From a virus, in IMG/VR virus record IMGVR_UViG_3300029605_000149, positions 7,564 to 71,563 of that record: a stretch of DNA of 64,000 nt; one strand, 5' to 3'. Of this stretch, positions 10,577-36,939 are shown one piece after another. A program made the translations under genes and the position numbers. The notes under the pieces are model-generated. The model did no database searches, was not told the origin of the DNA, and saw nothing but the letters and a program-made list of their open reading frames with translations. How positions within the stretch are numbered: the stretch's first letter is position 1; the number at the start of each line of letters is the position of its first letter.

Positions 10577-12621
10577 TGGCAAGTAAGCATAAAGAAGCTG
10601 TTAAAAGGCAAAGAGAAGTTGCTTATGTACAAAAGAAAGAAGATAAAAAGACTGCCTTAGAAACAAAAAGTATAAATGATATCATACCGATTGTTGACAC
10701 ATTTAAAGGATGTTTTAAGCTCAAAGACGGTACCTTCATGGATATCGTACAAGTCAAATGTAAAGACCTTGTTAATGCATCCGAAAGTGATGTCAACTTT
10801 GATATGTACTCTCTTACAAAACTGTACAGAGCTTATACCGATGATTTAAAAATCATTTCTCTTAATTTCCCCACAAATACGAAATCACAACAGATTTATT
10901 TTCAGCACAAAATCAATCATACAGCTAACCCATTACTCAAAAACATACTCAATGAAAAATATGAAAAACTCGTTGATGATGAACTTCACAGCACAAATCG
11001 TGAGCATTACATTATGTACTTCGGTAAAACATATGAGAGGTTACTTAACAATCTCAATACTATTACCGCTTCATTGGGAACATCACTTGTTGAGTTATGT
11101 TCTATGTCTAAGAAAATACAGATGTTGTTCTCTGTCACTAATATGGCGTCGGTTGTATTTTATGACGACACCGCCGATAGAAGAATAAATCCGCCAAATA
11201 AAGAAGAACTTGTCGAAAAGTACGGATATAATCCGTATTTGTTGCAAGCTATACAGCCTATGGGCGGTATCAAGTTCTCAAATGATGATTATATCCGCAC
11301 CGGCGATGGATATGTGACCTGCTTGTATGTGTATGGCTATCCGAAAATTGTTGACAGACATTGGCTTAACACACTTTGCAACAACCGTGGTACTGTGACG
11401 ACCATTGATGTTACAACAGTTGATTCATACAATGTAAAAAAAGACCTAAGAAAGTCAATTGCGGAATATCGAGGAAGAGAGAGAACTGCAAAGAACACAC
11501 TTGACGCTATGGATGCCGCTGATAAAAGAGATGAACTCTCGACTCTTGTAAGAGATGTAAATTATGGTGAAGTAATCAAGAGAATGACTACACGAGTATT
11601 CCTTGCTGACACCAATTACGAAAATCTTATGAAAACCGTAAGATACTATAAGAAAAATGTATTCGAGGATAACGAGTATCAAGTAGCAATCAACCTCAAT
11701 GAAATGCAATATGAGTGGACATCAATGTTTAAATCATATTCTATGCAAAGTGCAGATTACTATTCAAGGCGAACAGGAAAAGCAATAGCTTCCTCGACGC
11801 TTGCCGGCGGTGATGCTTTTCATTTTACTTCTCTTAACGATGAATTTGGCTCCGATTTCGGACATACTCTCTCAAATGGTTATGACGGCAGAGTGTTGCT
11901 TGATATGTTTGAAGCAGGACAGTCAAGGTCATCATATAACTTTCTTTTGGTTGGCTTATCGGGTGTTGGTAAATCAACTCTTCTGAAAAAGATAATGGTT
12001 GACAGAGCAGCAAGAGGAGATTATCTGAGGGTAATTGATGTTGCAGGTGATTTCACTCAGGTGTGTCATTCTCTCGGCGGTAAGGTTGTATATCTTGACG
12101 GTAGTGACGGTGGCAGACTTAATCCTTTGCAGATTAATAAGGCAGATGATACTGATGCAGGTTCATATGATATGAATATCACCAAAATGGCTAATATATA
12201 CAGCTTTCTTGCTCCTGAAGCCTCTGATATTGAAAAGCGTATGTTCAAGAATATCTTGCACCAATTGTACAAACAGTTTGGAATTACTAAAGACACACCA
12301 AACCTTACAGAATTGCCGGCAAAGGCATATCCCCGTATGGAAGATATACTACCGATAATTGATTGGTACCTCAGTCAAATACAGCATGGCGAATTGCAGG
12401 AAGGTGCAATGTCTAAAGAGGAAATGCAGAATGAAGAAATGCGAACAATACTCTTGCACATCAAGCTTGTTATCGTAGATGTCATTCAGTCAAATGCAAA
12501 TATATTTAACAGCTATTCGGATATTGATAATCTTATTGACACGCAGGTTGTTGTTTATAATTTAAAAAAGCTTGATAAGAAAAATGATAACGAAGTGTTT
12601 GTCGCTTTTCGCACAAATTAA
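10576..12621 (+). CDS. VirB4/TrbE-family conjugative ATPase, N-terminal 675 codons; truncated by prophage insertion (last 6 codons plus stop are phage-end sequence)
   Basis: Walker A LLVGLSGVGKSTLLKK at about residue 455; Walker B and C-terminal motifs are found 32 kb downstream at 44612-45139 in the same codon phase. Confidence 0.75.
   Translation: MASKHKEAVKRQREVAYVQKKEDKKTALETKSINDIIPIVDTFKGCFKLKDGTFMDIVQVKCKDLVNASESDVNFDMYSLTKLYRAYTDDLKIISLNFPTNTKSQQIYFQHKINHTANPLLKNILNEKYEKLVDDELHSTNREHYIMYFGKTYERLLNNLNTITASLGTSLVELCSMSKKIQMLFSVTNMASVVFYDDTADRRINPPNKEELVEKYGYNPYLLQAIQPMGGIKFSNDDYIRTGDGYVTCLYVYGYPKIVDRHWLNTLCNNRGTVTTIDVTTVDSYNVKKDLRKSIAEYRGRERTAKNTLDAMDAADKRDELSTLVRDVNYGEVIKRMTTRVFLADTNYENLMKTVRYYKKNVFEDNEYQVAINLNEMQYEWTSMFKSYSMQSADYYSRRTGKAIASSTLAGGDAFHFTSLNDEFGSDFGHTLSNGYDGRVLLDMFEAGQSRSSYNFLLVGLSGVGKSTLLKKIMVDRAARGDYLRVIDVAGDFTQVCHSLGGKVVYLDGSDGGRLNPLQINKADDTDAGSYDMNITKMANIYSFLAPEASDIEKRMFKNILHQLYKQFGITKDTPNLTELPAKAYPRMEDILPIIDWYLSQIQHGELQEGAMSKEEMQNEEMRTILLHIKLVIVDVIQSNANIFNSYSDIDNLIDTQVVVYNLKKLDKKNDNEVFVAFRTN
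12595..12599. repeat. target-site duplication GTGTT (left copy)
   Basis: Identical 5 bp flank both ends of the inserted element; host codons gaa-gtg-ttt are shared. Confidence 0.6.
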
Positions 12622-12649
12622 AAAAACTTTTCGCACTAAATGAAAAAAA
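12600..12649 (+). repeat. phage right-end: terminal TGTCGC followed by two tandem 22-bp repeats TTTTCGCAC(A/T)AAT(T/G)AAAAAA(C/A), candidate transposase binding sites
   Basis: Read directly; other terminus (reverse complement of 44599-44611) is TGTAAGTTTTCGG, giving inverted repeat TGT-N3-TTTTCG. Confidence 0.5.
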
Positions 12650-12702
12650 TTGAATTAATCATTTTTGCATATTGTTGCAGAAATGTTTCCTACAAATAAA
12701 AA

Positions 12703-12737
12703 ACACCTTGCAGAGATTTCACTCATCTGCAAGGTGT
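12703..12737 (-). terminator. rho-independent terminator at end of phage late operon (overlaps last codons of XRE gene)
   Basis: ACACCTTGCAGA / TCTGCAAGGTGT 12-bp stem, followed on minus strand by T-run (12690-12702). Confidence 0.6.
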
Positions 12738-13000
12738 TTTGTGTTTTTATTATGCTTTTTTCTGTCCACGATAAGGTATTTACCGGTTTTCTTGATTTTA
12801 TTTGGTTGATATTCAAGAATATCGGATATATCACATTCAAGAACTTCACAAATTCTATCAAGGTGTTCTAAATTTATCCTGTCACACATTTCATTGTAGA
12901 TATCACAAATGGTAGAAGGACGAATACCAGTTTTTCTTGCAAGTTCCGCTTGCGACATACGATACTTACCTAATATTGTGGACAAATTGATCTTTACCAT
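12719..13000 (-). CDS. XRE-family HTH transcriptional regulator
   Basis: SQAELARKTGIRPSTICDI helix-turn-helix; 93 aa. Confidence 0.7.
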   Translation of the reverse strand: MVKINLSTILGKYRMSQAELARKTGIRPSTICDIYNEMCDRINLEHLDRICEVLECDISDILEYQPNKIKKTGKYLIVDRKKHNKNTKHLADE

Positions 13001-13054
13001 AATAACGCCCCGATGATTATTATATCAGTAAGCGTTAATTATTGCTCATACTTG

Positions 13055-13840
13055 TTAATTCATAACAAAGTTCGTTATGATAACTTCTTTGAACTCCACA
13101 CAATTATCGGGGGTTGCAGGGAGTAGATTTTGCCTACTTACGCACTTTATATTGTAACCTTTATACAAGTCACGAATGAAATCGCAATCGTTATAGGATA
13201 GGATAAAACGCCCTTTAATCCCCTTTAAAACGGCATTTAAACGGATATGGTCATCCTTATTAAACTTACTGTAATTGCGGTTATAGTAGCGTTCCGAGGC
13301 TACATATGGCGGATCTACATAGAACAAGGCAGATTCTCTGTCATATGTTTTTATGAGGTCTTCAAAGTCTCTATTTTCAACGATTACACTTTTTAATCGC
13401 TCCTTGTATTTCGGGAGTTCAGAAACAATGTTATCAATCGTTTTAGGCGCAGTTGCGAACGAATAGCGATTACTGCCGAAACTGCATTTGATTAAGTAAA
13501 GATACCTTGCCGCTCTTTGCAGGTCAGTAAGCTCAACCTGATTCTCAATCTCATAGCGATATTGCGAAAACAACTCACGAGATTGTAACCAGTCAACTTC
13601 TTTTTGAAGTGCTGAACAGTTGTTTTTTATTTGCTTATAAAGGTTAATCAGGTCACCGTCAATGTCGTTAAATACCTCAATTTGACCTTTGATTTTATCC
13701 TTACCGAATAAGACCCAGCCTGCACCGCCACACACCTCTATGTAGCGGTTACAGTCACCGGGAATAAGTGAAATAATCTGATTTTTAAGATGACTTTTGC
13801 CACCAATCCAGCCGATAAAGCTACGCATTTTTACCTCCAT
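13055..13840 (-). CDS. dam: DNA adenine methyltransferase (Dam/MethyltransfD12 family), orphan
   Basis: IGWIGGKS, EVCGGAGWV, NDIDGDLINLY and DPPY motifs; no adjacent restriction endonuclease. Confidence 0.9.
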   Translation of the reverse strand: MEVKMRSFIGWIGGKSHLKNQIISLIPGDCNRYIEVCGGAGWVLFGKDKIKGQIEVFNDIDGDLINLYKQIKNNCSALQKEVDWLQSRELFSQYRYEIENQVELTDLQRAARYLYLIKCSFGSNRYSFATAPKTIDNIVSELPKYKERLKSVIVENRDFEDLIKTYDRESALFYVDPPYVASERYYNRNYSKFNKDDHIRLNAVLKGIKGRFILSYNDCDFIRDLYKGYNIKCVSRQNLLPATPDNCVEFKEVIITNFVMN

Positions 13841-13878
13841 AATAACTTTTTTTAGGGGCGTTATTATGGATCAAAAAA

Positions 13879-14808
13879 TCACTTTAAAAACTTGCGGTCA
13901 ACAAATACAATGCTGTTGCTCTTTGGGTAGGCAATTTCTGCCATTCCTGCATTTTTACCCCTTTCTACAATGTAACGCACGGTTACTCTTGTACCTTTAG
14001 GGATTATGCCAAATTTAACTTTCTTGTCGGGGTGTGTATAAATATTAGCGGTTGCGTTTGCTGTCATTTTTGGGTATTTTGATAATGATGAATTATTATT
14101 GATTCTCGTATTCTGTACAAATCCCGTTTTGTTTTTGTACTTAATTTTACTCCAACCATAGCCATCATCATAAATATGTGTAATGCTTGAATTTTTAGGC
14201 ATTATACAAATATTTTTGCAATCACCATAGGCATACGCTTTTGATTTGAGTTTACTCTCCGTTGTAATCTTATTATGAGCGACAGATGCGTTTGCTTTAT
14301 ATGTAACGCCAAAAGCTGTGCATAAGCCTTTACAAATAGCTTCGCCGAGTTTTGTGGTATTGTTGATAATCCACTTTGCAAGATTTGAACTGTCATGAAA
14401 TTCACATTCACAATATACGCATTTGGCGTGTGTTGAATTAATCTCAGCAAGTTCATTTTTTGAAATGCCTCTACCTACACCTGTGAGCTTTACAAGTTCG
14501 TTGTAAACCGGCTGTGCGTACTTGAGATTTTCCGCAGAACGGTTATAAACAAATACATTTGTACCCTTGCCGCCACCAGCGTTTGTATGGATACAAACAT
14601 GGACATCAGCTCCAAAGTTATTACTTTCAGAAATTGATGTGTACATATTCTGACCTTTCGGAGCACGCTTTACAGTAAATCCGCAACGCTTCAAGGCGGT
14701 TTCTGCTGCAATTGCAATCTTATTGCATTGTTCCATTTCTGTGGTATTGCCGTATGCGTATGAATTTGCATACTGATTTGACGGGCTGAGATAGATTTTC
14801 TTTGCCAT
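13879..14808 (-). CDS. endolysin, N-acetylmuramoyl-L-alanine amidase with C-terminal cell-wall-binding domain
   Basis: Amidase_3-like motif VHVCIHTNAGGGKGTNVFVY; adjacent to holin. Confidence 0.8.
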   Translation of the reverse strand: MAKKIYLSPSNQYANSYAYGNTTEMEQCNKIAIAAETALKRCGFTVKRAPKGQNMYTSISESNNFGADVHVCIHTNAGGGKGTNVFVYNRSAENLKYAQPVYNELVKLTGVGRGISKNELAEINSTHAKCVYCECEFHDSSNLAKWIINNTTKLGEAICKGLCTAFGVTYKANASVAHNKITTESKLKSKAYAYGDCKNICIMPKNSSITHIYDDGYGWSKIKYKNKTGFVQNTRINNNSSLSKYPKMTANATANIYTHPDKKVKFGIIPKGTRVTVRYIVERGKNAGMAEIAYPKSNSIVFVDRKFLK

Positions 14809-14829
14809 TACTATTCCTCGCTTTCATTG

Positions 14830-15030
14830 TTATTCGTTTCTGTTGGCATCAACCATGCCTTCGCCGATGATATATGCAATCATCGTACCTGCGGACATAA
14901 TAATTGATGTAACCTGTGCAGTTTCGGTTTCTGTTACTCCAAATCCCATAAGGAGTGCTGTAACAAAACCGATTACCGCTGCCCAAAATTTCCTGCTTGT
15001 TAATTTCTGTTTCCAGTTGATTTTCTTCAT
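14830..15030 (-). CDS. holin
   Basis: 66 aa, two TM helices, charged C-terminus, immediately upstream of endolysin. Confidence 0.7.
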   Translation of the reverse strand: MKKINWKQKLTSRKFWAAVIGFVTALLMGFGVTETETAQVTSIIMSAGTMIAYIIGEGMVDANRNE

Positions 15031-15284
15031 TATGTTTCCTCGCTTTCTTCTATCATCGGATCATCTACAGTAGGGTTATCACCCCACACAGCGATGACCG
15101 CATTATAGTAATCGTCAGACTAAGACTCCTTAATGAGTGCTCTGCCTGACGGACTGTTTTCATATGCATTGCGGATATTGTTCGTGTAAAATTTCTCACC
15201 ATCAATATCAAAGTATTGTTTTTTATGATTGACACGCTGTCCTTTGTGAGCATATCAAGTGTGATTTTTTTCTTTAAGTTCCAT
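15030..15284 (-). pseudogene. protein-like reading frame with two in-frame stops (TGA, TAG) ending in TAATG overlap with holin start
   Basis: Frame reads MELKEKNHT*YAHKGQRVNHKKQYFDIDGEKFYTNNIRNAYENSPSGRALIKES*SDDYYNAVIAVWGDNPTVDDPMIEESEET; strong RBS AAAGGAGA before ATG at 15284. Confidence 0.3.
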
Positions 15285-15336
15285 TTTTAAATTCTCCTTT
15301 ATTTAATTTTGTACAAGCAAATCACATTTAAAAATT

Positions 15337-17355
15337 TTACTGTCCGGTGGTAAAGTCTTTAAAATAATCGTAATAATCAACTACGCAACGACAAAAAAGT
15401 CTTTCATTTGCTTTTGCCATACCAGCGTATAAAGGTGCTGTCGGGTGATTATAAGACTGCCCCGTCTTATAAATGCTGTCTTTTGCATAAAAAGCGTCAT
15501 CCTTAATGTTTATGAAAGGTATATTGTAATGATTTGCAATATTTTTTATGGCAGCAGTAAAACTATCCTCCGTAGCGTTATATAAATACGCCATAGACAT
15601 TAGCACAATTTTTGACTTTGGAGCGTGTTCTTTGATTTGTTCGATAATTTTTCCGTAATTGCCGTAAAAAGTGTCAGGATAATCGGAATAGGACTCATGA
15701 TTTGTGATGTCTTCGATTGTGCCTAAGTACGAAGCTCCGAGAGAAATTTCGTCATTAATACCTAAGACACACAGATATAACTCTTGTGGTTTCTCCGCAA
15801 GCATTTTGGCAAGTCCATGAGAATTGGTAAGCCATGTTCGGGTTGTAAGACCACCTACGGACAAATTTATGCAGGTGGCGCCGTACTTTCTCGCTAAAAT
15901 CTGACCCCACGATTTTTGGAAATAATCTGCTACAGTATATCCTTTACTCTGTGAAGGGTCAGCAACATAAATTTCACCGCTTGCATATGAATCACCTATA
16001 ACTGCAAATTTTTCAAAAAATCCAAAATCAATCGGAATTTTTTCCTCATGATTTTCAAAATCTGATTTCGATACGCTTTCAAAAATGTAGCAATTCTTTT
16101 TAATAAGGAATCCTGTTCCTGTGCCTTGTAGTCTTGTGCCGTCAGCAATCCCCGAAAAATCATAATCAAATCGCATAATAGCACCAGGCACGATTGCGGA
16201 TAAATCAACAGTTATAGTGCCAGCTTCTTCGGTAACTCTTACACCTTTGACAAGATTTGCTGTAGCACCTGTATCGTCTGTTGTGTAGATATATAATAAA
16301 TTTGTATCATCGCCCTTATAATGTCGATTAAAATTACTGATAAGTAAACGAGCATCGGTGTGATTCATGCCAACTATCTGTACATTGGAAACGATTTTGT
16401 CTGCTTTTCCAGTCAATTCAAAACTCGAAATCTTGTTTGCTATATTTGAATCCATTTCTTCTTTGGCTTTGTCAAGCAGATAATCGAGTCTTGTATTTCC
16501 ATAACACCATTCAGAGCAAAGTACATAACTTTTGTCAAACTGCACATCAGTATTATAAGGAATTTCATCCCAATTTACTGTCATCGTAATAGTCTTATCT
16601 AAATTTGAGTAAGTTGCATACCCCGTTATGTCAGAATCAACATTGGCATATAGTTTCGCAGTCGATAATGCACCGTTTTCAACTAAATAAAGTACGATAG
16701 TGTTTTTTGTGGATGTTCGCTTGACGTAACCTATAGCAATAGTGCTCCCATCTGTAACACGAATGTCTTTAATCGCATACATCCATTCATAGGGATATGA
16801 TTCAAAGACCTGTAAGCCCAGATTTGTTAAATGACACTTCAACTCGTTTATTAAGTTATTTATAATAGCTGTAAGAACTTTGTTCTGTACAGGATTAACG
16901 CTCTTAGCATCCAGTGCAGTATCGGTAAGCACAGCTCCACTCTCGGTCAGAGCAATGACACGGGACAATATGTCTAATAATTCGGGATAATAGTCAGAGG
17001 TAGTGATGTCACCGTCATAATCGCTGTGGGTGTTAATTACAAACGGTTGAGTAGAGTAGGTGTGAGTGCCGTCTGTAAGCACAATTTTAGCTATAGTCCT
17101 GCCGGCAGATGAAAGCATAGCTTTATCTGTAGTTACAGTAACAATATTTTTTGCTACTGTAGCATTTACAGCAAAATAGTTACTGCCGCTTTTACCTTTG
17201 CATACAGCTGTTGCACCAGTTGCATCGTAAGCCTCGCCATCAGCGGTAAGGTTAATTTTAATCTGTCTGCCAATGTCATATTGCCCTGCTGAGATTACTA
17301 TGGGAGTAGCCTGACAGTTTAAATCAAGCGTAATTTTAGCAACATATTCATTCAT
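15337..17355 (-). CDS. tail fibre / receptor-binding protein with C-terminal SGNH (GDSL) hydrolase domain
   Basis: GDSYASG (block I) and GINDE (block III) motifs in C-terminal third; position after Tal. Confidence 0.7.
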   Translation of the reverse strand: MNEYVAKITLDLNCQATPIVISAGQYDIGRQIKINLTADGEAYDATGATAVCKGKSGSNYFAVNATVAKNIVTVTTDKAMLSSAGRTIAKIVLTDGTHTYSTQPFVINTHSDYDGDITTSDYYPELLDILSRVIALTESGAVLTDTALDAKSVNPVQNKVLTAIINNLINELKCHLTNLGLQVFESYPYEWMYAIKDIRVTDGSTIAIGYVKRTSTKNTIVLYLVENGALSTAKLYANVDSDITGYATYSNLDKTITMTVNWDEIPYNTDVQFDKSYVLCSEWCYGNTRLDYLLDKAKEEMDSNIANKISSFELTGKADKIVSNVQIVGMNHTDARLLISNFNRHYKGDDTNLLYIYTTDDTGATANLVKGVRVTEEAGTITVDLSAIVPGAIMRFDYDFSGIADGTRLQGTGTGFLIKKNCYIFESVSKSDFENHEEKIPIDFGFFEKFAVIGDSYASGEIYVADPSQSKGYTVADYFQKSWGQILARKYGATCINLSVGGLTTRTWLTNSHGLAKMLAEKPQELYLCVLGINDEISLGASYLGTIEDITNHESYSDYPDTFYGNYGKIIEQIKEHAPKSKIVLMSMAYLYNATEDSFTAAIKNIANHYNIPFINIKDDAFYAKDSIYKTGQSYNHPTAPLYAGMAKANERLFCRCVVDYYDYFKDFTTGQ

Positions 17356-17620
17356 CGGCGTGCTCCTTTTCCGTTGTTGTAGCTTCGCCTGTGAGTTCTG
17401 CGATTACCTGTGATTTGATATCCACAAGCACTGATGACATTATGCCGTCAATAAGGCTTGCCGGGAAGCCGTATTTACTTACAATTGCATTAACGGCGGC
17501 AATAAGTTCAGACCGTGCTGATTGTAATGCTAATGGACTAAGTTTCGTCTGCATTTTTATCCTCCTTTGAGTGAATTTCTTCAGACCGTTCTGCCGGTCT
17601 TGATTTATCCGTTTCGGCAA
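17348..17620 (-). CDS. hypothetical tail-associated protein
   Basis: 90-aa ORF coupled between Tal and fibre. Confidence 0.4.
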   Translation of the reverse strand: MPKRINQDRQNGLKKFTQRRIKMQTKLSPLALQSARSELIAAVNAIVSKYGFPASLIDGIMSSVLVDIKSQVIAELTGEATTTEKEHADE

Positions 17621-17660
17621 TTTCCTTCGTATTGATTATGTAATCCATTTTAATTACCTC

Positions 17661-19463
17661 CTAAGCAGTTAACGATTGAAGAATGCCATTTTTGAAGGTC
17701 ATTTTAAACTCTTTCCAAGTTGCTGCTGTACCATTGCTGTTAAATGATGTTACATAATAACCCGAAAAAGTGTCTGTAATAGAGCCGCCTTTAAAGCCCC
17801 AATCATTCAAAATAGCGTTGTGTAAATAATGATTCCGCAAGTTAAGGTCACAACCTGTGTGTAACTGATTGGCTTCAAGCGAACCGATTTTTTGAGCGGC
17901 ATATGTAAAAATAAGAGTGTATGAAGAATCAGTTGATTTCATACGATAACACCAATCCATAAATGCCGAACCGTTTTCAAGGTTAAACGAAAGGTCACGC
18001 TTTGAAGTATCAGAAGCATAACAACCGGTACCTATGTAACCTACCTTAGTGCCTTTGTAGTAAAAATTTTGACCTACCGAATTTAACGACATTAGCTTTT
18101 TGCCGTTATTATCAAAAATATCATGTCCTGTTGATGACAAGCTCATCAGCTTTGTGTTCTGGAAATTGTACACATTTAGCTGTGAATTTTCAAATTTTAT
18201 GTAATTTGAAATTTTGTTCCAAGCAATTTTGATGTCATCGGCAGATTGTTGGAGAAGAGTACCCCACCTGTCCGAACCGACAACCTTGTTTACTTCAAAA
18301 AATAATCCCTCGGCGGTTTGTGTAATCACCGAACTGTTGAGCGAACTTGCCCACGAATCGGACACATGAAGAACGGTTGTGTCTAAGTCCTGTTTAATCT
18401 CATTTACCTTGTTATGGTCGTGCAAAGTTTGTGCATCAAGAGCAGTAACCTTGTTTTGCAAGGTCTGCAACTTCCCTGTTACTTTGGCGGGCACAGTTGA
18501 TAAAGTAACCGTGTTAAGTGTTGGATCTGCAGGGTACTCTTTAATCTCTACAATGCGGTGGTCAATCCTTGTCTTGCGTTTACGGTCAATCAGAGTAACC
18601 ACATCGTATAAATCAAAGGCAAGCACATCACCGTATGTGTCGGGCAATGTTTTTGCAAGGTCAATAACCTTAGCTGTGTAGGATTGCTCCGGCACAGCAA
18701 GCACGGCAAGTTTTGCTTTTGCATCGTCAAGCAAAGTTTGCTTGTTTGTATAGCGTTCGTCTCGCCATATAGCTGATATGACCTTGTCGGTATAGCTATG
18801 ATTTTCAATGTAATTTTTGCCATTGTTTAGGCTGGCTATACTTAAATTATCTTTACCGTATGGATAAAGTCTTGTAACCAAACTTGTGGTACTGCCTTTG
18901 TAAGTCATATCGCTCAAATTAAGCTCATCGGTAAAGTAAGTGCCTGTCGGCTCGGTGTTGTTGTACGGCTTGATGCAGTAAATAACCTTGTTAATTGTGT
19001 CAAAACGATAGCGAGTGTTATACGCCGTCGAGTTTTGGCAATAATCGAGGATGTCAAGCGTGGTTACATCAGTCAGCTCAAGCGTTCGGCGAGCTGACAC
19101 AAGGTCGGCATCAACTATAGTCCAACCTGTTCCTTTTAAAATCTCCGAACATACGCTTGCAAAGCTAACGGTGCTTTTGTTGTAAGTAGGGTAAACATTA
19201 TAATTAAGTCCCGTGAGGTCAAGCTCACAGGTTATCGTGCTTACTGTTTTACGCTCGTTAATGCCGTTGATAAGATAACGCTGTCCGTCATACTCGACCG
19301 TACCATACAAAACAAAGTATCTGTACAACTCATGGTCAGGCGATATATCAAACTGTAATGACATCAAACCGTCCTCTGAACGAGTACGAAAAAAGGTATT
19401 ATCAATGTCACGATACACCTTAATATCATCACCGTAAAATACCTTTAAAAACATCTTAAACAC
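17661..19463 (-). CDS. tail-associated lysin-like (Tal) / prophage tail endopeptidase family protein
   Basis: 600 aa immediately after Dit in canonical siphovirus order. Confidence 0.6.
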   Translation of the reverse strand: MFKMFLKVFYGDDIKVYRDIDNTFFRTRSEDGLMSLQFDISPDHELYRYFVLYGTVEYDGQRYLINGINERKTVSTITCELDLTGLNYNVYPTYNKSTVSFASVCSEILKGTGWTIVDADLVSARRTLELTDVTTLDILDYCQNSTAYNTRYRFDTINKVIYCIKPYNNTEPTGTYFTDELNLSDMTYKGSTTSLVTRLYPYGKDNLSIASLNNGKNYIENHSYTDKVISAIWRDERYTNKQTLLDDAKAKLAVLAVPEQSYTAKVIDLAKTLPDTYGDVLAFDLYDVVTLIDRKRKTRIDHRIVEIKEYPADPTLNTVTLSTVPAKVTGKLQTLQNKVTALDAQTLHDHNKVNEIKQDLDTTVLHVSDSWASSLNSSVITQTAEGLFFEVNKVVGSDRWGTLLQQSADDIKIAWNKISNYIKFENSQLNVYNFQNTKLMSLSSTGHDIFDNNGKKLMSLNSVGQNFYYKGTKVGYIGTGCYASDTSKRDLSFNLENGSAFMDWCYRMKSTDSSYTLIFTYAAQKIGSLEANQLHTGCDLNLRNHYLHNAILNDWGFKGGSITDTFSGYYVTSFNSNGTAATWKEFKMTFKNGILQSLTA

Positions 19464-19471
19464 CTCCTAAA

Positions 19472-20284
19472 CTAAATGTAAATCGGTGTATAGGACACAG
19501 AAATTTCAACATCTGACTCCGTTGAAGAAACAATATTTTTTCCCGGGTTCAACACGGGGAAGTCAATCAAGTCAGAATCATTAAACTTATTTTTACCGTC
19601 CGCCGTTATAAGCCCTGCTACGCTGTCAATTACAACCGTCATACCCGATGTGACAGATTTAATTGTTACATCTGCCAATTTAACTTTGTTTCGAGTGTTT
19701 GCTATGCTGTTGTATTTGGCGGTAACAACAGGCAAGGTAGGTGTATTAGATTCGCAGATAATGTATCCGTTTGGTTTTACGCTTTGAGTTATTACAGCTT
19801 TATGTCTTACAGTATTAAATGTATATGTAACATCATGCTCACCACTGCTATCAAAAGTTGCGGCGGCAATACTGTTGACAATTGCCGTGTATATAAATCC
19901 ATCAGGAAGAGCAATTTCAACTACTTTGCCAACAAGCAAGCCCTCAAATACAGTTATATTTTCGGTTGCTATTGCAAGGCGGTCGGAAACTGTCAAACCT
20001 TTTGCATAGTCACCAAGATAGTGAGGGTAAAAAGTCAAAGTTAAAGTCAAAGTTCTTGTGCCGGGAACGGAAGAAAACAGTAACGGAGCTGTTAAGATAC
20101 TGCGAGAGGCAGATAAATTGTTGGTAACGGTTGTACCGCTGACCGAATAGCTTTGTAAACGGGCATTGTATGCGGAAATATCAACGCCGTTTATTGTCAT
20201 TTCGTTAAGCATTTTATCTGTCCTCCCATGCAAGTTCTTCAGAAACATACGGCGTGAGTGCCACAGCTGTTTCTCGACCGTCAA
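19472..20284 (-). CDS. distal tail protein (Dit, siphovirus tail component)
   Basis: 270 aa directly downstream of tape measure. Confidence 0.55.
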   Translation of the reverse strand: MTVEKQLWHSRRMFLKNLHGRTDKMLNEMTINGVDISAYNARLQSYSVSGTTVTNNLSASRSILTAPLLFSSVPGTRTLTLTLTFYPHYLGDYAKGLTVSDRLAIATENITVFEGLLVGKVVEIALPDGFIYTAIVNSIAAATFDSSGEHDVTYTFNTVRHKAVITQSVKPNGYIICESNTPTLPVVTAKYNSIANTRNKVKLADVTIKSVTSGMTVVIDSVAGLITADGKNKFNDSDLIDFPVLNPGKNIVSSTESDVEISVSYTPIYI

Positions 20285-23200
20285 TATTAATTGAGGTGTG
20301 AATATCGCCTTTAAGGCTGTACTTACGCTCGTTATCCTCGCTCATCAGCTCGACATTGTGGTTGACATCAGCGGTAAATTTGGATCTAAGCATTGACTGT
20401 CCTGCAGACACAGCCGCCCTCATCTTGCTGACTAAACCGTCAGCTGAAACACCTGCCTGCATACGCTCGGTAAATGTGGATGCCACCGTGTCAGCCTGCT
20501 TATAAAGTTTGGGAGCTTCGGCATCAAGTCCGTTTTCACCGCCTTCGAGTGTGTAGCCGAAAATCTTTTTAAACACTTTTGAGGGGGAGTGTTCATCAAA
20601 CATTTTCCTGAAAATATTGATAACACTGCCTGAAATTTCTGAGGCCTTAGAATAAAGCGAATCCTGTTTTTCTGATAAACCAGTTTCCGCTCCTTCCATA
20701 GCATCTATAAAGCTTTGTTTAGTGTCTTCATCAAGGTTATCAAACGCTCCTAAAAATGCAGAATTTATTCCTTTAGCTTTTGTATCTGTTTCTCCGGTAT
20801 ATTGTTCATACAAACCCATTAAAGATAGAAATGCAACCAACTGATCTTGGTATTTTTCATCAGATAAAGCCTTACCTTGTTTGTTTCTTATTTCACCGAG
20901 TTCTTTGCTGTACCTTGCATTTTCTTCTTCTTCGGCTTTTTCTTTGATTCTAAGTGCAGTGCCTGCCATAAGAGATTTTTGAGTATCAGTTAAATTTTTG
21001 TTGCTTATTTTATAAAGCTCAGTATTATAATTACTTGCTATATCAATAAGTTTTTGTTTATGCGTTTGCTCGGCATCACTTTCATCTTGATTTAATCCTT
21101 TTAAATCTTCAGTTGTACTCTTCAACGCTTCTGCACGATTATAATAACCGTCTTTAATAATTTTAAGAGTATCCCCAGCCTCCTTATTGGCTGCACTAAC
21201 GGCTTGCTGATAGCTCGCTTCTGCGGCTTTAACATCAGCATCATGTTCCTTTTGTGAGTAATCACTATCTGTTTTCAACCTCAAATCAAGCAGAGCTACT
21301 TCTTCTGTATATTGCTCGTATGCTTTATCAATTACCGCTGTACGAGTTTCTTCGGCAGAGTTGGTGAGTTTTTGTGCTCTTTGCGTATATTCTTCAAGCG
21401 ACAAATCAGACGCCTCGTTGAGAGCCTTAGCCTGAGTTGTAACAACCCCTTGCTTTGCTTCTTCAATCGCAAGTTCTTGATCCGCAAGTTCGTGCATTTT
21501 GGCGAAAAGGTCTTCAAGTCTTTGAATTTCACCGCCGGTTAATTCTTTTCGATTTTCCGAGGCAGTTTTACAAATCTCTGTAATTTCGGATTGAACATTG
21601 TCCATATTTTCGGACAACTTTTGTTTTTCATCATCGGAAATAAGGATGCTTTCATTGAAGTTATCAAAGATACTGCCCGAGTTTTTAATATCGTTCATAA
21701 AATCGCCGAATTTTGAACCAATATCCTCATATGACGAACCAAGGTTATCATTTGCCGACTGTAAATTAGCCTCCGCACTTGCAAGATCGTCCGTTGATTG
21801 AGTTGCATCACCGTTAGCGGCAGAAAACGCAATAATGCCTGCTGTCAAGGCTGTAATACCTGTCAAGATAAGCACGGCAGGATTAAGTGACATTGCCATA
21901 TTCCACGCATATTGTGCAGCTGTTGCGAGCGTGATTTCACCTGTTAATGCACCGACTGCAATTTGTTTAAGCGTTATAGTGCCGAGTGATGCCGCCTCTG
22001 CAAGACTTTCAGCCGTGACTGATGCGGCGTGTTGAGTTACAAGAGCGGTTATTGACGAGATGATTTTCCAAGCCTTCCATGCCGTGATTGCTGTAGTAAC
22101 AATGGGCAACAGTATATTGAGGTTGTCGGCAATCAAGTCAATAGCTTTTGCAAGCGGTGGTATAACAACCTTTGCAATGTTAGTAATAGTTTTGCCGAGG
22201 TTAATCAATATGGTTTTAACTGTATTGATAGCTTTTTTAAGACCGCCATTTTCAAAGGATTTTTTGATAGTGTTAATTGCCTCTTTAACGGGGGCTTGCA
22301 GTTCTTTTGGCAAGAGCTTAACTAAGTTTTTAGTTAAAGCATCTACGATACTTTTTGCCGCAGACAGTAGATCGGGAGCACGGTCACTTATGCCTTTAAC
22401 CAATGTTTTTACGATGTTTATAGCAGCTTTAACAAGTTTTGATGAGTTATTTGCAATCCCGTTAACGAATGCCTGTAAAAAGGACATTGCGGCATCAATC
22501 ATTTTCGGAGCGGCTTCAACTGCTTTTGTTGCAAGCTCACCGAAAATAGAGCCAGCTTCTTCAATCATTCCCGACAAGCCACCTTCGGTAAATGCCGTGG
22601 TTAACCTATTGACATAGTTCTGAGCTTCCTTTGCGGCATCGGTCAGAGGTTCGGACATACTTTCGTATATTTCTATACCCAAGCCTTCAAGTCCTGATTT
22701 AAGAATCGTAATCTGTCCCTGCAGATTGTTCTGCATCGTTTCAGCCATTGCCTTAGCTGAGCCGTCTGCATTATCAATATTTTTTACAAGTGTATTAAAA
22801 TCCTTATCACTCGCATTGATGATAGCAAGCATACCCGACATAGCCTCTTTGCCGAAGAGAGTACTTGCGGCGGCTGTTTGTTCTGTTTCAGATAAACCGC
22901 TAAACTTTGTTCTAAGCTCTTTGATGACATCAATTAAAGGTAATGCTTCGCCGTTGGCATCGGTCATGCTTATTTTGTACTCATCCATTACCTTTTGCAT
23001 TTCTTTAGTCGGAGAAGCAAGGTTAGATAAGGCTGTTTTAAGGCTTGTGCCTGCCATACTGCCCTTAACACTTGCATTAGCCATAAGTCCGAGTGCAACA
23101 GACACATCTTCAACGCTATAATTCATCGCACCTGCCAAAGGTGCTACATATTTAAAACTTTCGCCGAGCATTGAAACATTGGTGTTTGCAGAACTTGAGG

Positions 23201-23696
23201 TTTTTGCAAGTACATCGGCAAAGTGCGTACTATCAGAAGCTTTAAGTCCAAATGCTGTAATTGCATCGGTGACAATATCTGAGGTTGTCGCAAGGTCAAG
23301 ACCGTCTGCAGCGGCAAGTGACATTATACCGTCAATACCGTTAAGCATTGATTTAGTATTCCAACCAGCCATTGCCATATATTGTAAAGCCTCGGCGGAT
23401 TCAGATGCAGAAAACTTAGTTTTAGCTCCCATTTCTTTGGCTTTGTCTGTAAGGCTTTGCAGGTCTTTTCCGCTTGCACCGCTGATAGCCGAAACCTTGG
23501 ACATAGCCGCCTCGAAAGATGAACCGACAGTTGCCGCTGCTGTTGCTCCTGCTCCAAGAGTTGTAGCTATACCAGCAAGCGTTGTTGTTATTGCAGACAC
23601 ACCTGTTTTGGCAAGTCCTTTTAATTTATCAATACCTATTCTAAAACCACCGGTATCAATTTTGGTGTCAATTTTAATAGAGCCATCGTATGCCAA
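20214..23696 (-). CDS. tail tape measure protein
   Basis: 1160 aa, Ala/Gly/Ser/Thr-rich N-terminus with TM-like segments, long coiled-coil region. Confidence 0.9.
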   Translation of the reverse strand: MAYDGSIKIDTKIDTGGFRIGIDKLKGLAKTGVSAITTTLAGIATTLGAGATAAATVGSSFEAAMSKVSAISGASGKDLQSLTDKAKEMGAKTKFSASESAEALQYMAMAGWNTKSMLNGIDGIMSLAAADGLDLATTSDIVTDAITAFGLKASDSTHFADVLAKTSSSANTNVSMLGESFKYVAPLAGAMNYSVEDVSVALGLMANASVKGSMAGTSLKTALSNLASPTKEMQKVMDEYKISMTDANGEALPLIDVIKELRTKFSGLSETEQTAAASTLFGKEAMSGMLAIINASDKDFNTLVKNIDNADGSAKAMAETMQNNLQGQITILKSGLEGLGIEIYESMSEPLTDAAKEAQNYVNRLTTAFTEGGLSGMIEEAGSIFGELATKAVEAAPKMIDAAMSFLQAFVNGIANNSSKLVKAAINIVKTLVKGISDRAPDLLSAAKSIVDALTKNLVKLLPKELQAPVKEAINTIKKSFENGGLKKAINTVKTILINLGKTITNIAKVVIPPLAKAIDLIADNLNILLPIVTTAITAWKAWKIISSITALVTQHAASVTAESLAEAASLGTITLKQIAVGALTGEITLATAAQYAWNMAMSLNPAVLILTGITALTAGIIAFSAANGDATQSTDDLASAEANLQSANDNLGSSYEDIGSKFGDFMNDIKNSGSIFDNFNESILISDDEKQKLSENMDNVQSEITEICKTASENRKELTGGEIQRLEDLFAKMHELADQELAIEEAKQGVVTTQAKALNEASDLSLEEYTQRAQKLTNSAEETRTAVIDKAYEQYTEEVALLDLRLKTDSDYSQKEHDADVKAAEASYQQAVSAANKEAGDTLKIIKDGYYNRAEALKSTTEDLKGLNQDESDAEQTHKQKLIDIASNYNTELYKISNKNLTDTQKSLMAGTALRIKEKAEEEENARYSKELGEIRNKQGKALSDEKYQDQLVAFLSLMGLYEQYTGETDTKAKGINSAFLGAFDNLDEDTKQSFIDAMEGAETGLSEKQDSLYSKASEISGSVINIFRKMFDEHSPSKVFKKIFGYTLEGGENGLDAEAPKLYKQADTVASTFTERMQAGVSADGLVSKMRAAVSAGQSMLRSKFTADVNHNVELMSEDNERKYSLKGDIHTSINIDGRETAVALTPYVSEELAWEDR

Positions 23697-23916
23697 TATC
23701 TCACATCCTTTACTGTGAGGTCATCGGCATCCAATGGCTCTACTTGACCTGATTATTTTTTATCGTTTAATACGATTTCAAATAGCTTTTTACAGTTACG
23801 CCCTTTACAGTATGTAAAAATGCCCTTACACCTTGACGATTTGTCAAAGTAATATAAGGGCATTTCGTAACCGCAAAAAGGGCATTTAATTTTTTGTTTG
23901 TTTTTCAATTTATCAC

Positions 23917-24261
23917 CTACGATAAATCATATTGATTTTTACTTGTTAATTTTGTTTTAACACTTAAATCTAATTCATTTTTCGGTACTTTAGAAGTGAA
24001 TTCAAACTCAGCGTAACCGCTGGTTTCGCCTTCAAATTTATATACATATGTATTTATATAATAATCATCAGTTTCGTCTTTTGATTCTGATATCTTAGTA
24101 CCTTTTCCGCCAACAATTTCTTCAACTTTAAATATAGTCATTCCCATATTTATTTGGTCAAACTCATCTTTGCTGATTCCTGACGGGTCGTTTTTAGCTC
24201 CACAGGCTGTGCAAGTCAATGCTAACAATGCAATAGTTATAAAGGATAGAATCTTTTTCAT
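23917..24261 (-). CDS. small secreted lipoprotein (moron; possible superinfection-exclusion type)
   Basis: Signal peptide MKKILSFITIALLALTCTAC with Cys; inserted between tail chaperones and tape measure. Confidence 0.55.
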   Translation of the reverse strand: MKKILSFITIALLALTCTACGAKNDPSGISKDEFDQINMGMTIFKVEEIVGGKGTKISESKDETDDYYINTYVYKFEGETSGYAEFEFTSKVPKNELDLSVKTKLTSKNQYDLS

Positions 24262-24305
24262 AGCTGTACCACCTCAATAAATTTTATATACACATTATAC
24301 AAAAT

Positions 24306-24896
24306 CTATATAAGTTCGTCAACTGATTTTCCTGATAACAAAGCCTCTTCAATCGCATTATACTTTTCCTGCACCGACAGCGGCAGAGGCAGGGCATAGA
24401 GTTTTTTCATTCGCTGATAAAAATTGCGGTCTGCCGTTGACATTTTAGGGGTAATCGGCATACTGCGATAACCTAAAATTTTTGTAAACATACAATCGGC
24501 ACGCAATGACATAAACAATGCTCTGAACTTCCACCAATGCAAATTTGCATCGTTGAGGTCAATGCCGTACTGCTCTAAAAATGCCGCATAGATATAGCCG
24601 TCATCAAAATCGTAATCAAATACAGCTTTATCATTGCCACCGCCTGAATGCTTTTCGGGTGGTTTTCCACAGCGATAAAAGTTTAAAATAGCCTCGACTG
24701 TTTCTTCGTTCATCGGGCAAGGTGTTCTGAATACAAGCTTCTGAATTTCTGCGAGTATTTCAGCCGATAGTGTATCATCAATTTGATTAGTAAGTATAAG
24801 CTCGAATTTAATCCACACTCTAAAGTCGGTGTTGATTTTATAATCTACACCCGACACGGTTATTGTATCGGGTGTTATGTCACAAAGCAGATTCAT
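24306..24896 (-). CDS. tail assembly chaperone-like protein (gpT-like position)
   Basis: Position between gpG-like ORF and tape measure; start overlaps upstream stop. Confidence 0.4.
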   Translation of the reverse strand: MNLLCDITPDTITVSGVDYKINTDFRVWIKFELILTNQIDDTLSAEILAEIQKLVFRTPCPMNEETVEAILNFYRCGKPPEKHSGGGNDKAVFDYDFDDGYIYAAFLEQYGIDLNDANLHWWKFRALFMSLRADCMFTKILGYRSMPITPKMSTADRNFYQRMKKLYALPLPLSVQEKYNAIEEALLSGKSVDELI

Positions 24897-25294
24897 TACT
24901 TTGTCGCCGGTTTAAGTGTCTTTTTGTAATGATTGTACTGCTTATGCTTTTTGCCTCTGTGATTGTTAATCGCATTTGCTTTGCCTTTATACATACTACC
25001 GAGCTTTGAGCCGAAAGCATTAACAGCCTTGATAACATCCTCGTAAGCATTAAGGCAGGTTGTAAGGTTTACGGTTTCGCCGAAAACCTTTTTAGCTGTA
25101 CCGTCACCAAAAACCTCATCAAAAAAGTTAAAAACAGCCGTACACTGAGCACGGATAAGCTCTGACTGGCGTTTGCCTTCGGGATGTAAATCGTCCATTG
25201 CTTTTGCGACATTATCGTGAGCGTGCTCGTAACGCTCCATTGCAAGTGCATCGGCAACATCAATATCGGGTAAATTTACTCCGTTAATAACCAT
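24896..25294 (-). CDS. tail assembly chaperone (gpG-like)
   Basis: 132 aa acidic protein following major tail protein. Confidence 0.45.
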   Translation of the reverse strand: MVINGVNLPDIDVADALAMERYEHAHDNVAKAMDDLHPEGKRQSELIRAQCTAVFNFFDEVFGDGTAKKVFGETVNLTTCLNAYEDVIKAVNAFGSKLGSMYKGKANAINNHRGKKHKQYNHYKKTLKPATK

Positions 25295-25296
25295 AC

Positions 25297-25806
25297 TTAT
25301 GCCACCTCCGTAGTTGCTGTAAATGTCTTTGTCGCTGTGTCAAAAGTACCCTCAACAGGATCTCCCTTAGCCAAAAAGTTACCGCTGCATCCCATTTCGC
25401 CGTCATCATTTGTAAAACTTGCAACCTCAACCGCAACACGGATTTTGCGTGCGTGATAAGTGGTTTTGTTACTCTCTCCACTCACCGGCTGGTCAAGGTC
25501 AACAATTACATAATCTGTTTCGGCGTCTGCTCCTACAAGCTGTTTTTCACCGATATTGATAATGTAATTGATTGCGTCCTGCTCACGGATCTGGTCAACC
25601 TCAAATGCCGTTGTCCAATCGTAACCGCTGATTGATTTTGTAGCAGACTTATCACAAACATATTTGCGACTCTTTGTCTGTGCGGCAGGTGACTCATCAA
25701 GAGTTTTTGCACCTACGCCCAAAAGCGAAAAATTCGGCGACTTGTTTGTGCCGCCGCAGTCAAGATAATTTGCCTGCATACGCCTCTGTCTAATTACTTC
25801 ATTCAT
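25297..25806 (-). CDS. major tail protein
   Basis: 169 aa, position and composition typical of siphovirus major tail proteins. Confidence 0.65.
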   Translation of the reverse strand: MNEVIRQRRMQANYLDCGGTNKSPNFSLLGVGAKTLDESPAAQTKSRKYVCDKSATKSISGYDWTTAFEVDQIREQDAINYIINIGEKQLVGADAETDYVIVDLDQPVSGESNKTTYHARKIRVAVEVASFTNDDGEMGCSGNFLAKGDPVEGTFDTATKTFTATTEVA

Positions 25807-27362: not shown

Positions 27363-27364
27363 TT

Positions 27365-28351: not shown

Positions 28352-28363
28352 TTTGTTTCCTCC

Positions 28364-29238: not shown

Positions 29239-29287
29239 ATTCTCTCTCCAATATGGAGCTTCTTTCAATGTACCTGTAGCCCAATTA

Positions 29288-32496: not shown

Positions 32497-32511
32497 CTGC
32501 TCACCTCCTTA

Positions 32512-35381: not shown

Positions 35382-35383
35382 AG

Positions 35384-36938: not shown

Positions 36939-36939
36939 C

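What the first reader, a model, noticed from the sequence alone, without database searches (positions are those of the whole stretch)
12600..12660. Phage terminal architecture: TGT-N3-TTTTCG terminal inverted repeats and multi-copy 22-bp end repeats
Reading inward, the two termini are TGTCGCTTTTCGCAC (low end, + strand) and TGTAAGTTTTCGGAG (high end, reverse complement of 44597-44611). That is an imperfect inverted repeat TGT-N3-TTTTCG. At the low end there are two head-to-tail copies of a 22-bp unit TTTTCGCAC(A/T)AAT(T/G)AAAAAA(C/A) at 12606-12627 and 12628-12649. A third copy sits at 44465-44486, about 125 bp inside the other end, on the + strand and so pointing outward. Two AACGGCTT(G)TTTT elements lie at 44528 and 44569. 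Tandem sites at one end plus an inverted site at the other resembles the L1-3/R1-3 arrangement of Mu, although the sequence motif is different. These are candidate transposase binding sites.
Basis: seen in the sequence. Interest (0 to 1): 0.6.

Follow-up and report, generated by a model that had tools for sequence, protein, structure and literature searches.

The report
Mu-like prophage ends with transposase sites
The repeats mark the exact ends of a 32-kb Mu-like transposable prophage from a gut Clostridia bacterium and are almost certainly its transposase docking sites, which makes this a well-defined but ordinary new member of a known kind of phage.

Summary
Window 12600-44611 is a 32,012-bp prophage with 5'-TGT...ACA-3' termini and a 5-bp target duplication (GTGTT). 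It interrupts a TraG/VirB4-like ATPase gene. Uninterrupted copies of that site occur in 17 gut metagenome contigs.

The element encodes a MuA-family transposase, a MuB-like ATPase and a repressor at the transposase-proximal end.

The 22-bp unit has four copies. R1 and R2 lie head-to-tail at positions 7-50 of the transposase-distal end. A degenerate L1 lies at positions 7-28 of the other end, and an inverted copy at 126-147. No other strong copy exists in 64 kb.

In about 60 relatives, homology stops exactly at TGT and the flanks differ, with 57 distinct flanks. A clade whose transposase is only 53-54% identical keeps the same 2+2 layout, offsets and 5-bp duplication, but its unit sequence differs. 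Its transposase has diverged most in the DNA-binding region.

This matches Mu-type end sites (R1-R2 tandem, L1 plus a distal L site). It differs from Mu and BalMu-1 in having four sites rather than six or five, and an inverted distal L site next to a conserved palindrome.

Binding is inferred, not shown. Verdict: new member of a known kind, modest interest.

The parts
12600..44611 (-). Whole Mu-like transposable prophage, 32,012 bp. The early genes are on the - strand, so the high end is the Mu attL equivalent and the low end the attR equivalent.
   Evidence: Termini TGT...ACA and the 5-bp duplication. Empty sites in 17 metagenome contigs, with 600 bp of joined flanks 98.3-99.8% identical without gaps. 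Phage and transposition genes.
12595..12599 (.). Left copy of the 5-bp target-site duplication, GTGTT.
44612..44616 (.). Right copy of the 5-bp target-site duplication, GTGTT.
12600..12605 (+). Terminal hexamer TGTCGC of the transposase-distal (attR-like) end. The cleavage site is inferred.
   Evidence: Homology with 35 relatives begins exactly here. Compare Mu R TGAAGC and BalMu-1 R TGTAGC.
12606..12627 (+). R1, a 22-bp candidate transposase site, TTTTCGCACAAATTAAAAAAAC (positions 7-28 from the end).
12628..12649 (+). R2, a 22-bp candidate transposase site, TTTTCGCACTAAATGAAAAAAA (positions 29-50), head-to-tail with R1.
12691..12749 (.). Hairpin with 24-nt arms and T-runs on both sides. Inferred to be a bidirectional terminator that shields the end from transcription.
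   Evidence: I1, 88% complementary. Not called by the simple terminator scan.
44584..44605 (-). L1, the degenerate terminal site, TTTTCGGAGAGAATAGGAAAAA (positions 7-28 from the transposase-proximal end).
   Evidence: 15/22 to the other units. Rank 9 of 127,958 under an independent matrix. In the distant clade, L1 is 21/22 identical to R1.
44606..44611 (-). Terminal hexamer TGTAAG (read inward) of the attL-like end.
   Evidence: Homology with 36 relatives begins exactly here and every flank differs.
44465..44486 (+). Distal L site (L2), TTTTCGCACTAAATAAAAAAAC, at positions 126-147 from the end and inverted relative to L1.
   Evidence: Conserved in all clades, and conservation of the end stops at its inner edge. 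The distant clade has an inverted copy of its own unit at 136-157.
44482..44540 (.). Conserved imperfect palindrome in the L1-L2 spacer. Role unknown: terminator for incoming transcription, or a protein or bending site.
   Evidence: I3. Conserved across clades including the distant one. 17 predicted pairs with one-sided G-U changes only and no compensatory pairs. The pattern hits only this family in IMG/VR, 32 of 32.
44561..44583 (-). Conserved CCGTAAAAAGCCGTTAAAAAAAG block next to L1. It is not a unit copy.
   Evidence: Matrix scans give no hit here.
44417..44460 (+). GC-rich hairpin followed by a T-run, inferred to be the repressor-gene terminator. It abuts L2.
   Evidence: I7. The hairpin is kept with different arm sequences in other clades.
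39778..41736 (-). MuA-family DDE transposase, 652 aa.
   Evidence: Pfam Mu-transpos_C, HTH_Tnp_Mu_2 and rve. PDB 4FCY E=5e-17 and TnsB about 2e-15.
38863..39774 (-). MuB-like AAA+ ATPase, 303 aa.
   Evidence: Pfam AAA_22 E=3e-16 and weak TniB.
43239..44177 (+). Repressor (HTH_3 plus Peptidase_S24), transcribed towards the attL-like end like Mu c.

Best explanation
Window 12600-44611 is an intact Mu-type transposable prophage of a gut Clostridia/Ruminococcus-like host. The 22-bp units are the end-recognition sites of its MuA-family transposase.

**Inferred mechanism, by analogy with Mu:**
1. Transposase monomers bind R1 and R2, which are contiguous at positions 7-50 of the transposase-distal end.
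2. Others bind L1 at positions 7-28 of the proximal end, and an accessory inverted site about 100 bp further in.
3. The four bound subunits pair the two ends into a tetrameric transpososome.
4. The transposase nicks at the terminal ...CA-3' and joins the ends to target DNA with a 5-bp stagger, giving the GTGTT duplication.
5. The adjacent AAA+ protein delivers the target.

Hairpins just inside both site clusters probably stop transcription from crossing the ends.

**Shown:** exact ends, the 5-bp duplication, the empty site, many independent insertion sites, four and only four strong sites, conservation, and co-variation of site sequence with transposase lineage.

**Inferred:** physical binding, stoichiometry, and the roles of L2 and the palindrome.
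For: **Ends and insertion**
- The unit occurs 3 times against 0.03 expected.
- A matrix scan of all 64 kb on both strands finds only R1, R2, L2 and L1 above background.
- There is a 5-bp duplication, and removing the element rejoins an 848-aa ORF.
- The empty junction is present in 17 metagenome contigs at 98.3-99.8% identity.

**Proteins**
- MuA domains and a MuB-like ATPase are present, with homology to PDB 4FCY.

**Relatives**
- In 36 L-end and 35 R-end relatives, homology breaks exactly at TGT.
- There are 39 + 18 distinct flanks. The target pentamer is N-Y-W-R-N.
- Matching 5-bp duplications occur in four other elements: CCTAT, ATTGC, TCTGA, CTGTC.
- Conservation of the L end runs from TGT to the inner edge of L2 and then collapses.

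**Co-variation in the distant clade**
- Its transposase is 53-54% identical.
- It has R 7-28 and 29-50, L 7-28, and L 136-157 inverted, with a different unit, TTTGCAAATGAAATCCAAAAAA.
- Its sites are 19-21/22 alike once the inverted site is read one base out of register (plus hand alignment). They are only 11-16/22 to the window's sites.
- Between the clades the transposase is 26.5% and 46% identical in the regions aligned to the Mu I-beta and I-gamma DNA-binding subdomains, against 71.6% in the catalytic core.

**Known systems**
- Mu and BalMu-1 show the same R1-R2 tandem at 22-bp spacing, and a terminal L1 plus distal L sites at about 110-170.
- In Mu, L1, R1 and R2 suffice for a stable complex (PMC3145075).
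Against: - No binding or transposition experiment exists.
- L1 in the window's clade is a weak match (15/22). By sequence alone it is no better than a few random positions.
- Co-variation with the transposase cannot be separated from co-variation with other early proteins, because the whole early region differs between the clades.
- The R ends of the intermediate clades (78-85% transposase identity) could not be retrieved.
- The inverted orientation of the distal L site has no counterpart at the L end of Mu or BalMu-1.
- L2's A/T runs also serve as the T-tracts of two flanking hairpins, so part of its conservation could come from termination signals.
Confidence: 0.87

Rival explanations
1. The 22-bp units are recognised by another phage protein, not mainly by the transposase. 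Candidates are a packaging (pac) factor acting at the left end, or a repressor or regulator that silences the ends.
For: - In Mu the pac signal lies within the left end (own knowledge).
- The units co-vary with the whole early region, not provably with the transposase alone.
- An HTH gene (12719-13000) and a repressor gene lie next to the two ends.
Against: - The sites sit at a fixed 6-bp offset from both cleavage termini.
- They are 22 bp long and head-to-tail, as in Mu and BalMu-1 R1-R2.
- They occur at both ends, whereas a pac signal is needed at only one.
- No copy lies in the operator region between the repressor and the early genes.
Confidence: 0.06
2. Only the terminal sites (R1, R2, L1) are transposase sites. 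The inverted copy at 44465-44486 is conserved mainly as the shared T/A-tract of two flanking terminator hairpins and is not bound.
For: - L2 is bracketed by the repressor-gene hairpin (44417-44460) and the spacer palindrome (44482-44540).
- In Mu, the accessory sites R3 and L3 are partly dispensable (PMC3145075).
Against: - L2 is the best match to the unit in the whole window, 20/22 to both R1 and R2.
- In the distant clade the inverted copy changed together with that clade's R1, R2 and L1. A T-tract requirement does not predict that.
Confidence: 0.06
3. The repeats are a chance similarity in AT-rich intergenic DNA, and the element is a decayed prophage with no functional ends.
For: - The region is AT-rich and the units are A/T-run rich.
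- Weak look-alikes occur elsewhere, with 60 22-mers at 15/22 or better.
Against: - 0.03 matches are expected against 3 observed.
- Ends are exact, with a duplication and an empty site.
- 57 distinct insertion flanks occur in relatives.
- All ORFs checked are intact.
Confidence: 0.01

Closest known systems
Escherichia phage Mu ends (attL L1-L3, attR R1-R3) and MuA/MuB
   Same: - DDE transposase homologous to MuA, followed by an AAA+ partner.
- A repressor gene next to the left end.
- TG...CA termini, a 5-bp duplication and near-random insertion with a Y..R-symmetric pentamer.
- 22-bp sites starting 5-6 bp from the terminus.
- R1-R2 contiguous and direct.
- L1 separated from a distal L site by about 100 bp. 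Mu L2 is at 111-132 and the window's is at 126-147.
   Different: - The transposase is only about 24% identical.
- There are four sites instead of six.
- The distal L site is inverted. In Mu, L2 and L3 are direct and only R3 is inverted.
- The central target base is A/T rather than Mu's G/C (the Mu preference is own knowledge).
- The repressor is HTH_3 plus S24 peptidase.
- The transposase N-terminus shows no similarity to the repressor.
- No internal enhancer was identified.
Bacillus phage BalMu-1 (KP063902), the closest named phage
   Same: - Transposase 39.5% identical over 96% of its length.
- R end TGTAGC... followed by two tandem 22-bp units, CTCGCAAAATGAGAAAAAATGA and CTTGCAAAATGAGAAAAATCAT.
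- These share a TCGCA..AAAT.A..AAAAA pattern with the window's units in the same orientation.
- Firmicutes host.
   Different: - BalMu-1 has two distal L copies, both direct.
- Its tail is PBSX-like and it carries a retron-type RT.
- There is no nucleotide similarity.
Gut Firmicutes Mu-like phages such as Faecalibacterium phage Mushu ('Saltoviridae'; Toussaint 2013; Hulo 2015)
   Same: A Mu transposase, a 5-bp direct repeat at the insertion site, and a gut Clostridia host (PMC5883640).
   Different: Not compared at sequence level here. The passages of that paper that were searched do not mention end-site architecture.
Tn7 / CAST ends (TnsB sites)
   Same: - The transposase also matches TnsB structures at E about 2e-15.
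- Tn7 likewise has TGT...ACA ends, several 22-bp TnsB sites arranged asymmetrically, and a 5-bp duplication (own knowledge).
   Different: - The element is a phage, with terminase, tail, lysin and repressor genes.
- It inserts at many sites rather than at one attachment site.
- No TnsA or TniQ was seen among the proteins scanned.

Membership tests
Mu-like transposable phages | DDE transposase homologous to MuA | tested here: met
   Pfam Mu-transpos_C 8.6e-15, HTH_Tnp_Mu_2 6e-12 and rve. PDB 4FCY 4.6e-17 over residues 82-580.
Mu-like transposable phages | Adjacent, co-oriented MuB-type AAA+ ATPase | tested here: met
   38863-39774 (-) lies directly downstream. AAA_22 3e-16, with weak TniB.
Mu-like transposable phages | 5'-TG...CA-3' termini with a 5-bp target duplication | tested here: met
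   TGT...ACA termini. GTGTT duplicated. Single copy in empty sites. Four further matching duplications in relatives.
Mu-like transposable phages | Insertion at many, essentially random sites | tested here: met
   39 distinct L flanks and 18 distinct R flanks among relatives, with only a weak N-Y-W-R-N preference.
Mu-like transposable phages | Multiple roughly 22-bp transposase sites, arranged differently at the two ends | tested here: met
   R 7-28 and 29-50. L 7-28 and 126-147 inverted. The same layout holds in a distant clade. This is sequence evidence only.
Mu-like transposable phages | Transposase physically binds those sites and forms a transpososome | not testable with these tools
   Needs EMSA, footprinting or in vitro transposition.
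Mu-like transposable phages | Complete tailed-phage gene set with a repressor next to the left end | tested here: met
   Terminase, BppU-type tail protein, amidase lysin, and an HTH_3+S24 repressor. ORF map. Not every structural gene was annotated.
Mu-like transposable phages | Internal transposition enhancer bound by the transposase N-terminal domain | tested here: inconclusive
   The first 144 aa give only a weak HTH_17 hit. There is no similarity to the repressor. No unit copies lie in the operator region.
Mu-like transposable phages | Virions carry variable host DNA at both ends (headful packaging from integrated copies) | tested here: inconclusive
   Several IMG/VR contigs stop 2-40 nt beyond the ends or carry non-matching flanks. 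This is suggestive, but no read-level data are available.
Tn7-like transposons | TnsB homologue together with TnsA and a TniQ/TnsD target selector, and site-specific insertion | tested here: not met
   A TnsB-like match exists, but the element is a phage that inserts at many sites. No TnsA or TniQ domain was found among the proteins scanned.

The most novel reading that the evidence does not exclude
This lineage may use a minimal four-site Mu-type end set, R1-R2 plus L1 and one inverted distal L site. In this reading the conserved palindrome in the L1-L2 spacer folds the left end back on itself, by cruciform extrusion, a host bending protein or a phage factor. The inverted L2 would then lie beside L1 and mimic the R1-R2 pair. 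That would be a different structural solution for left-end assembly from Mu's HU-bent spacer with direct L2 and L3.
Probability: 0.2. Interest if true: 0.45.

Novelty: new member of a known kind. Interest (0 to 1): 0.3.

Why it matters
- **Defined ends for an uncharacterised lineage.** The work gives base-exact ends, the target duplication and the likely transposase sites for a common gut Clostridia Mu-like phage lineage. It appears in dozens of human-gut viral contigs and has no close relative in GenBank phages.
- **A possible genetic tool.** A 50-bp R1-R2 end plus the 652-aa transposase is the kind of component from which mini-Mu-style transposition tools are built. Such tools are scarce for low-GC anaerobes.
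- **A natural specificity swap.** The two clades have different units and different DNA-binding domains but the same layout. They could be used to map MuA-type site recognition.
- **Limits.** Biologically the finding conforms to the Mu paradigm. It does not open a new question.

Tried and rejected
1. **Reverse-complement reading of the unit.** I first read ...GTGCGAAAA as matching the CGAAA(A/G) half of Mu sites. I rejected this after reading the real Mu and BalMu-1 ends. The same-orientation alignment gives the consistent architecture, and the other match is a by-product of the TTTTCG/CGAAAA symmetry.
2. **A third R site.** 12685-12706 scores 12.7 and matches R1 at 17/22. It varies among close relatives and is absent in the distant clade, so I rejected it.
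3. **A third L site.** 44439-44460 scores below threshold and is not conserved.
4. **AACGGCTT motifs as unit copies.** Rejected. One is an arm of the palindrome, and the other lies in a separate conserved block.
5. **Palindrome as a proven RNA or DNA structure.** Inconclusive. There are 17 pairs, no double compensatory change and only one-sided G-U changes. The simple terminator scan found nothing at either end.
6. **Mu-style kinship between the transposase N-terminus and the repressor.** None found.
7. **Near-identical DNA in GenBank phages.** No match.
8. **Tandem-unit pattern scan of IMG/VR.** Meant to reach R ends of intermediate clades. It returned only close relatives plus about 24 unrelated iteron-like repeats.
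9. **Scans with the L1-terminus and palindrome patterns.** They found only contigs of the two known clades, apart from one new contig with the L1 pattern.
10. **Apparent homology of a relative's flank with the window's flank.** This was a BLAST extension artefact.
Full report
**1. Observation**

The sequence is as described.
- The low end reads TGTCGC TTTTCGCACAAATTAAAAAAAC TTTTCGCACTAAATGAAAAAAA from 12600.
- The high end, read inward, is TGTAAG TTTTCGGAGAGAATAGGAAAAA.
- The 22-bp unit matches at 12606, 12628 and 44465, all on the + strand. That is 3 matches at up to 3 mismatches against 0.03 expected.
- The 9-mer TTTTCGCAC with one mismatch allowed is not enriched (18 observed, 23.7 expected). 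The signal therefore lies in the full unit.

**2. Exact boundaries**

- GTGTT occurs immediately outside both termini, at 12595-12599 and 44612-44616.
- Deleting 12600-44616 joins ORF 10576-12599 to 44617-45139, giving one open 848-aa frame.
- That protein is a TraG/VirB4-like P-loop ATPase (PF19044). The next gene is a CHAP/lysozyme protein, so the target is a conjugative element.
- The predicted empty junction, GATAACGAAGTGTTTAAAGCACAGG, occurs in 17 human-gut metagenome contigs.
- In eight of them, 600 bp of joined flanks with a single GTGTT align without gaps at 98.3-99.8% identity.
- The element is therefore 12600-44611, 32,012 bp, TGT...ACA, with a 5-bp target duplication.

**3. What the element is**

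- ORF 39778-41736 (-) carries Mu-transpos_C, the Mu I-gamma DNA-binding subdomain and an rve core.
- ORF 38863-39774 (-) is an AAA_22/TniB-like ATPase.
- ORF 43239-44177 (+) is an HTH_3 plus Peptidase_S24 repressor pointing at the high end.
- Terminase, a BppU-type tail protein, an amidase lysin and a Dam methylase complete a phage.
- The transposase aligns to MuA in the solved transpososome 4FCY (E=4.6e-17, residues 82-580) and to TnsB.
- The closest named phage is Bacillus phage BalMu-1, at 39.5% identity. Mu is about 24% identical. No nucleotide-level relative exists in GenBank phages.
- By gene order the high end corresponds to Mu attL and the low end to attR.

**4. How many sites**

- A matrix from the four candidate sites, scanned over both strands of all 64 kb, gives four scores of 25.7-31.7. 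The next best score is 16.8.
- With a matrix built only from R1, R2 and the inverted copy, the terminal high-end 22-mer (L1) scores 12.2, rank 9 of 127,958. It is a degenerate member, but it sits at the same 6-bp offset from TGT as R1.
- A look-alike at 12685-12706 scores 12.7. It varies among close relatives and has no counterpart in the distant clade.
- The layout is R1 at 7-28, R2 at 29-50, L1 at 7-28 and L2 at 126-147 inverted.

**5. Relatives**

- The transposase retrieved 61 IMG/VR loci (99-53% identity) and 6 MAG loci labelled Clostridia or Ruminococcus.
- In 36 loci, similarity to the high end starts exactly at TGT and the outside sequences differ.
- A scan with the Dam methylase gave 35 low ends with the same property.
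- Stringent patterns count 39 distinct L flanks and 18 distinct R flanks.
- The adjacent pentamer is N-Y(86%)-W(81%)-R(70%)-N. This resembles Mu's Y..R symmetry with an A/T centre.
- Where both ends lie on one contig with long flanks, the 5 bp match: CCTAT, ATTGC and TCTGA.
- Two contigs do not match. One of the two has only about 40 nt of flank at its L end.
- In an alignment of 13 L ends, conservation runs from TGT to the inner edge of L2 and then collapses.

**6. Co-variation**

- A clade with 53-54% identical transposase has the L end TGTAAG TTTGTAAATGAAATCCAAAAAA. The same palindrome follows, and then an inverted copy of that clade's own unit.
- I walked along its 46-kb contig in two steps. 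Its R end is TGTAGC TTTGCAAATGAAATCCAAAAAA TTTGCAAATAAAATGCAAAAAA, and CTGTC is duplicated at both flanks.
- A matrix scan finds exactly four sites: R 7-28 and 29-50, L 7-28, and L 136-157 inverted.
- Three of its sites are 19-21/22 alike. The inverted site reaches 19/22 when read one base out of register (hand alignment). All are only 11-16/22 to the window's sites.
- Between the clades the transposase is 26.5% identical over residues 61-143 and 46% over 144-243, the region that aligns to the Mu I-beta and I-gamma DNA-binding subdomains. It is 71.6% identical in the catalytic core.
- Sub-clades that keep the window's unit keep 75-85% identity in that region.
- Same architecture, different site, and a diverged DNA-binding region: this is what transposase recognition sites should look like.

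**7. Comparison with known ends**

All positions were read from the actual records.
- Mu: L sites at 6-27, 111-132 and 151-172, all direct. R sites at 6-27 and 28-49 direct, and 56-77 inverted.
- BalMu-1: two tandem R units 22 bp apart, and three direct L copies.
- The window shares the R1-R2 tandem, the terminal L1 and a distal L site at a similar distance. It has only one distal L site, and that site is inverted.
- R-end hexamers are alike: Mu TGAAGC, BalMu-1 TGTAGC, the distant clade TGTAGC or TGTTGC, and the window TGTCGC.
- In Mu, L1, R1 and R2 suffice for a stable complex, and R3 and L3 are largely dispensable (PMC3145075).
- Mu-like phages of gut Firmicutes with 5-bp repeats are already known (PMC5883640).

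**8. Other features at the ends**

- The L1-L2 spacer holds a conserved imperfect palindrome at 44482-44540.
- The palindrome is conserved even in the distant clade. A 21-base pattern for it hits only this family in IMG/VR (32 of 32).
- RNAalifold predicts 17 pairs but no compensatory double changes. A structural role is unproven.
- On the inward strand the palindrome is followed by L2's T-run. On the outward strand the repressor-gene hairpin (44417-44460) is followed by L2's TTTTCG.
- The R end has a 24-nt-arm hairpin at 12691-12749.
- I infer that these shield the ends from transcription. Readthrough is reported to interfere with Mu transpososome assembly (PMC3145075).
- Some sub-clades carry an 8-10-bp insertion between L1 and the CCGTAAAAA block, about one helical turn.

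**9. Verdict**

- Binding, stoichiometry and the roles of L2 and the palindrome remain inferences.
- This is a new, well-delimited member of the Mu-like transposable phages, with a modest architectural variation.

Noticed in passing
window 10576-12599 + 44617-45139; also 45152-46402: The prophage interrupts an 848-aa TraG/VirB4-like P-loop ATPase gene. A CHAP plus lysozyme gene lies next to it, so the host locus looks like a conjugative element that the insertion has probably disabled. Intact versions of the gene exist in 17 gut metagenome contigs.
   Followed up: partly
window 44482-44540; alignment A1 columns about 85-140: A conserved imperfect palindrome fills the spacer between L1 and the inverted L2. 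It stays conserved in the clade whose 22-bp units have changed. The covariation test found no compensatory pairs, so its role is open: terminator, cruciform or protein site.
   Followed up: partly
alignment A1 columns 30-39 (loci L037, L062, L063, L066): Some sub-clades carry an 8-10-bp insertion between L1 and the CCGTAAAAA block. That is about one helical turn, which would preserve the rotational phasing of L1 and L2.
   Followed up: no
L081, L082, L086, L088, L095-L106 (R-end loci); L081:7725-9602: More than 15 IMG/VR contigs share one R-end flank (...ACCGCACCATC|TGTCGC) in a host LicD/epimerase gene. Several of them stop about 2.34 kb beyond the end. Where checked (L081, L104), they share only the Dam, HTH and R1-R2 module with the window, and L081 has a different holin and amidase. 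Most were not found by the transposase, L1 or palindrome scans, so their transposase and L end remain unknown.
   Followed up: partly
L040 / L095 (contig IMGVR_UViG_3300030444_000250) and L027 / L083: The 5 bp flanking the two ends do not match on these contigs, unlike four other elements. Possible causes are chimeric assembly of virion-borne flanks or a rearrangement next to one end.
   Followed up: no
L263 position 1-16: The contig begins with TGTGTATAAGAGACAG, which I recognise from memory as the Nextera/Tn5 mosaic-end adapter. If so, it is library adapter left untrimmed in a public viral contig.
   Followed up: no
window 13055-13840 and 12719-13000: A Dam-type N6-adenine methylase and a small HTH_26 regulator are the last genes before the R end. 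This recalls the com/mom DNA-modification module at the right end of Mu. The module is exchanged between otherwise different relatives.
   Followed up: no
L226, L234/L245, L238, L249, L268, L275: Unrelated viral contigs carry arrays of TTTTC(A/G)CAC-containing repeats, in several with a period of 22 bp. These look like iterons and have nothing to do with this family.
   Followed up: no
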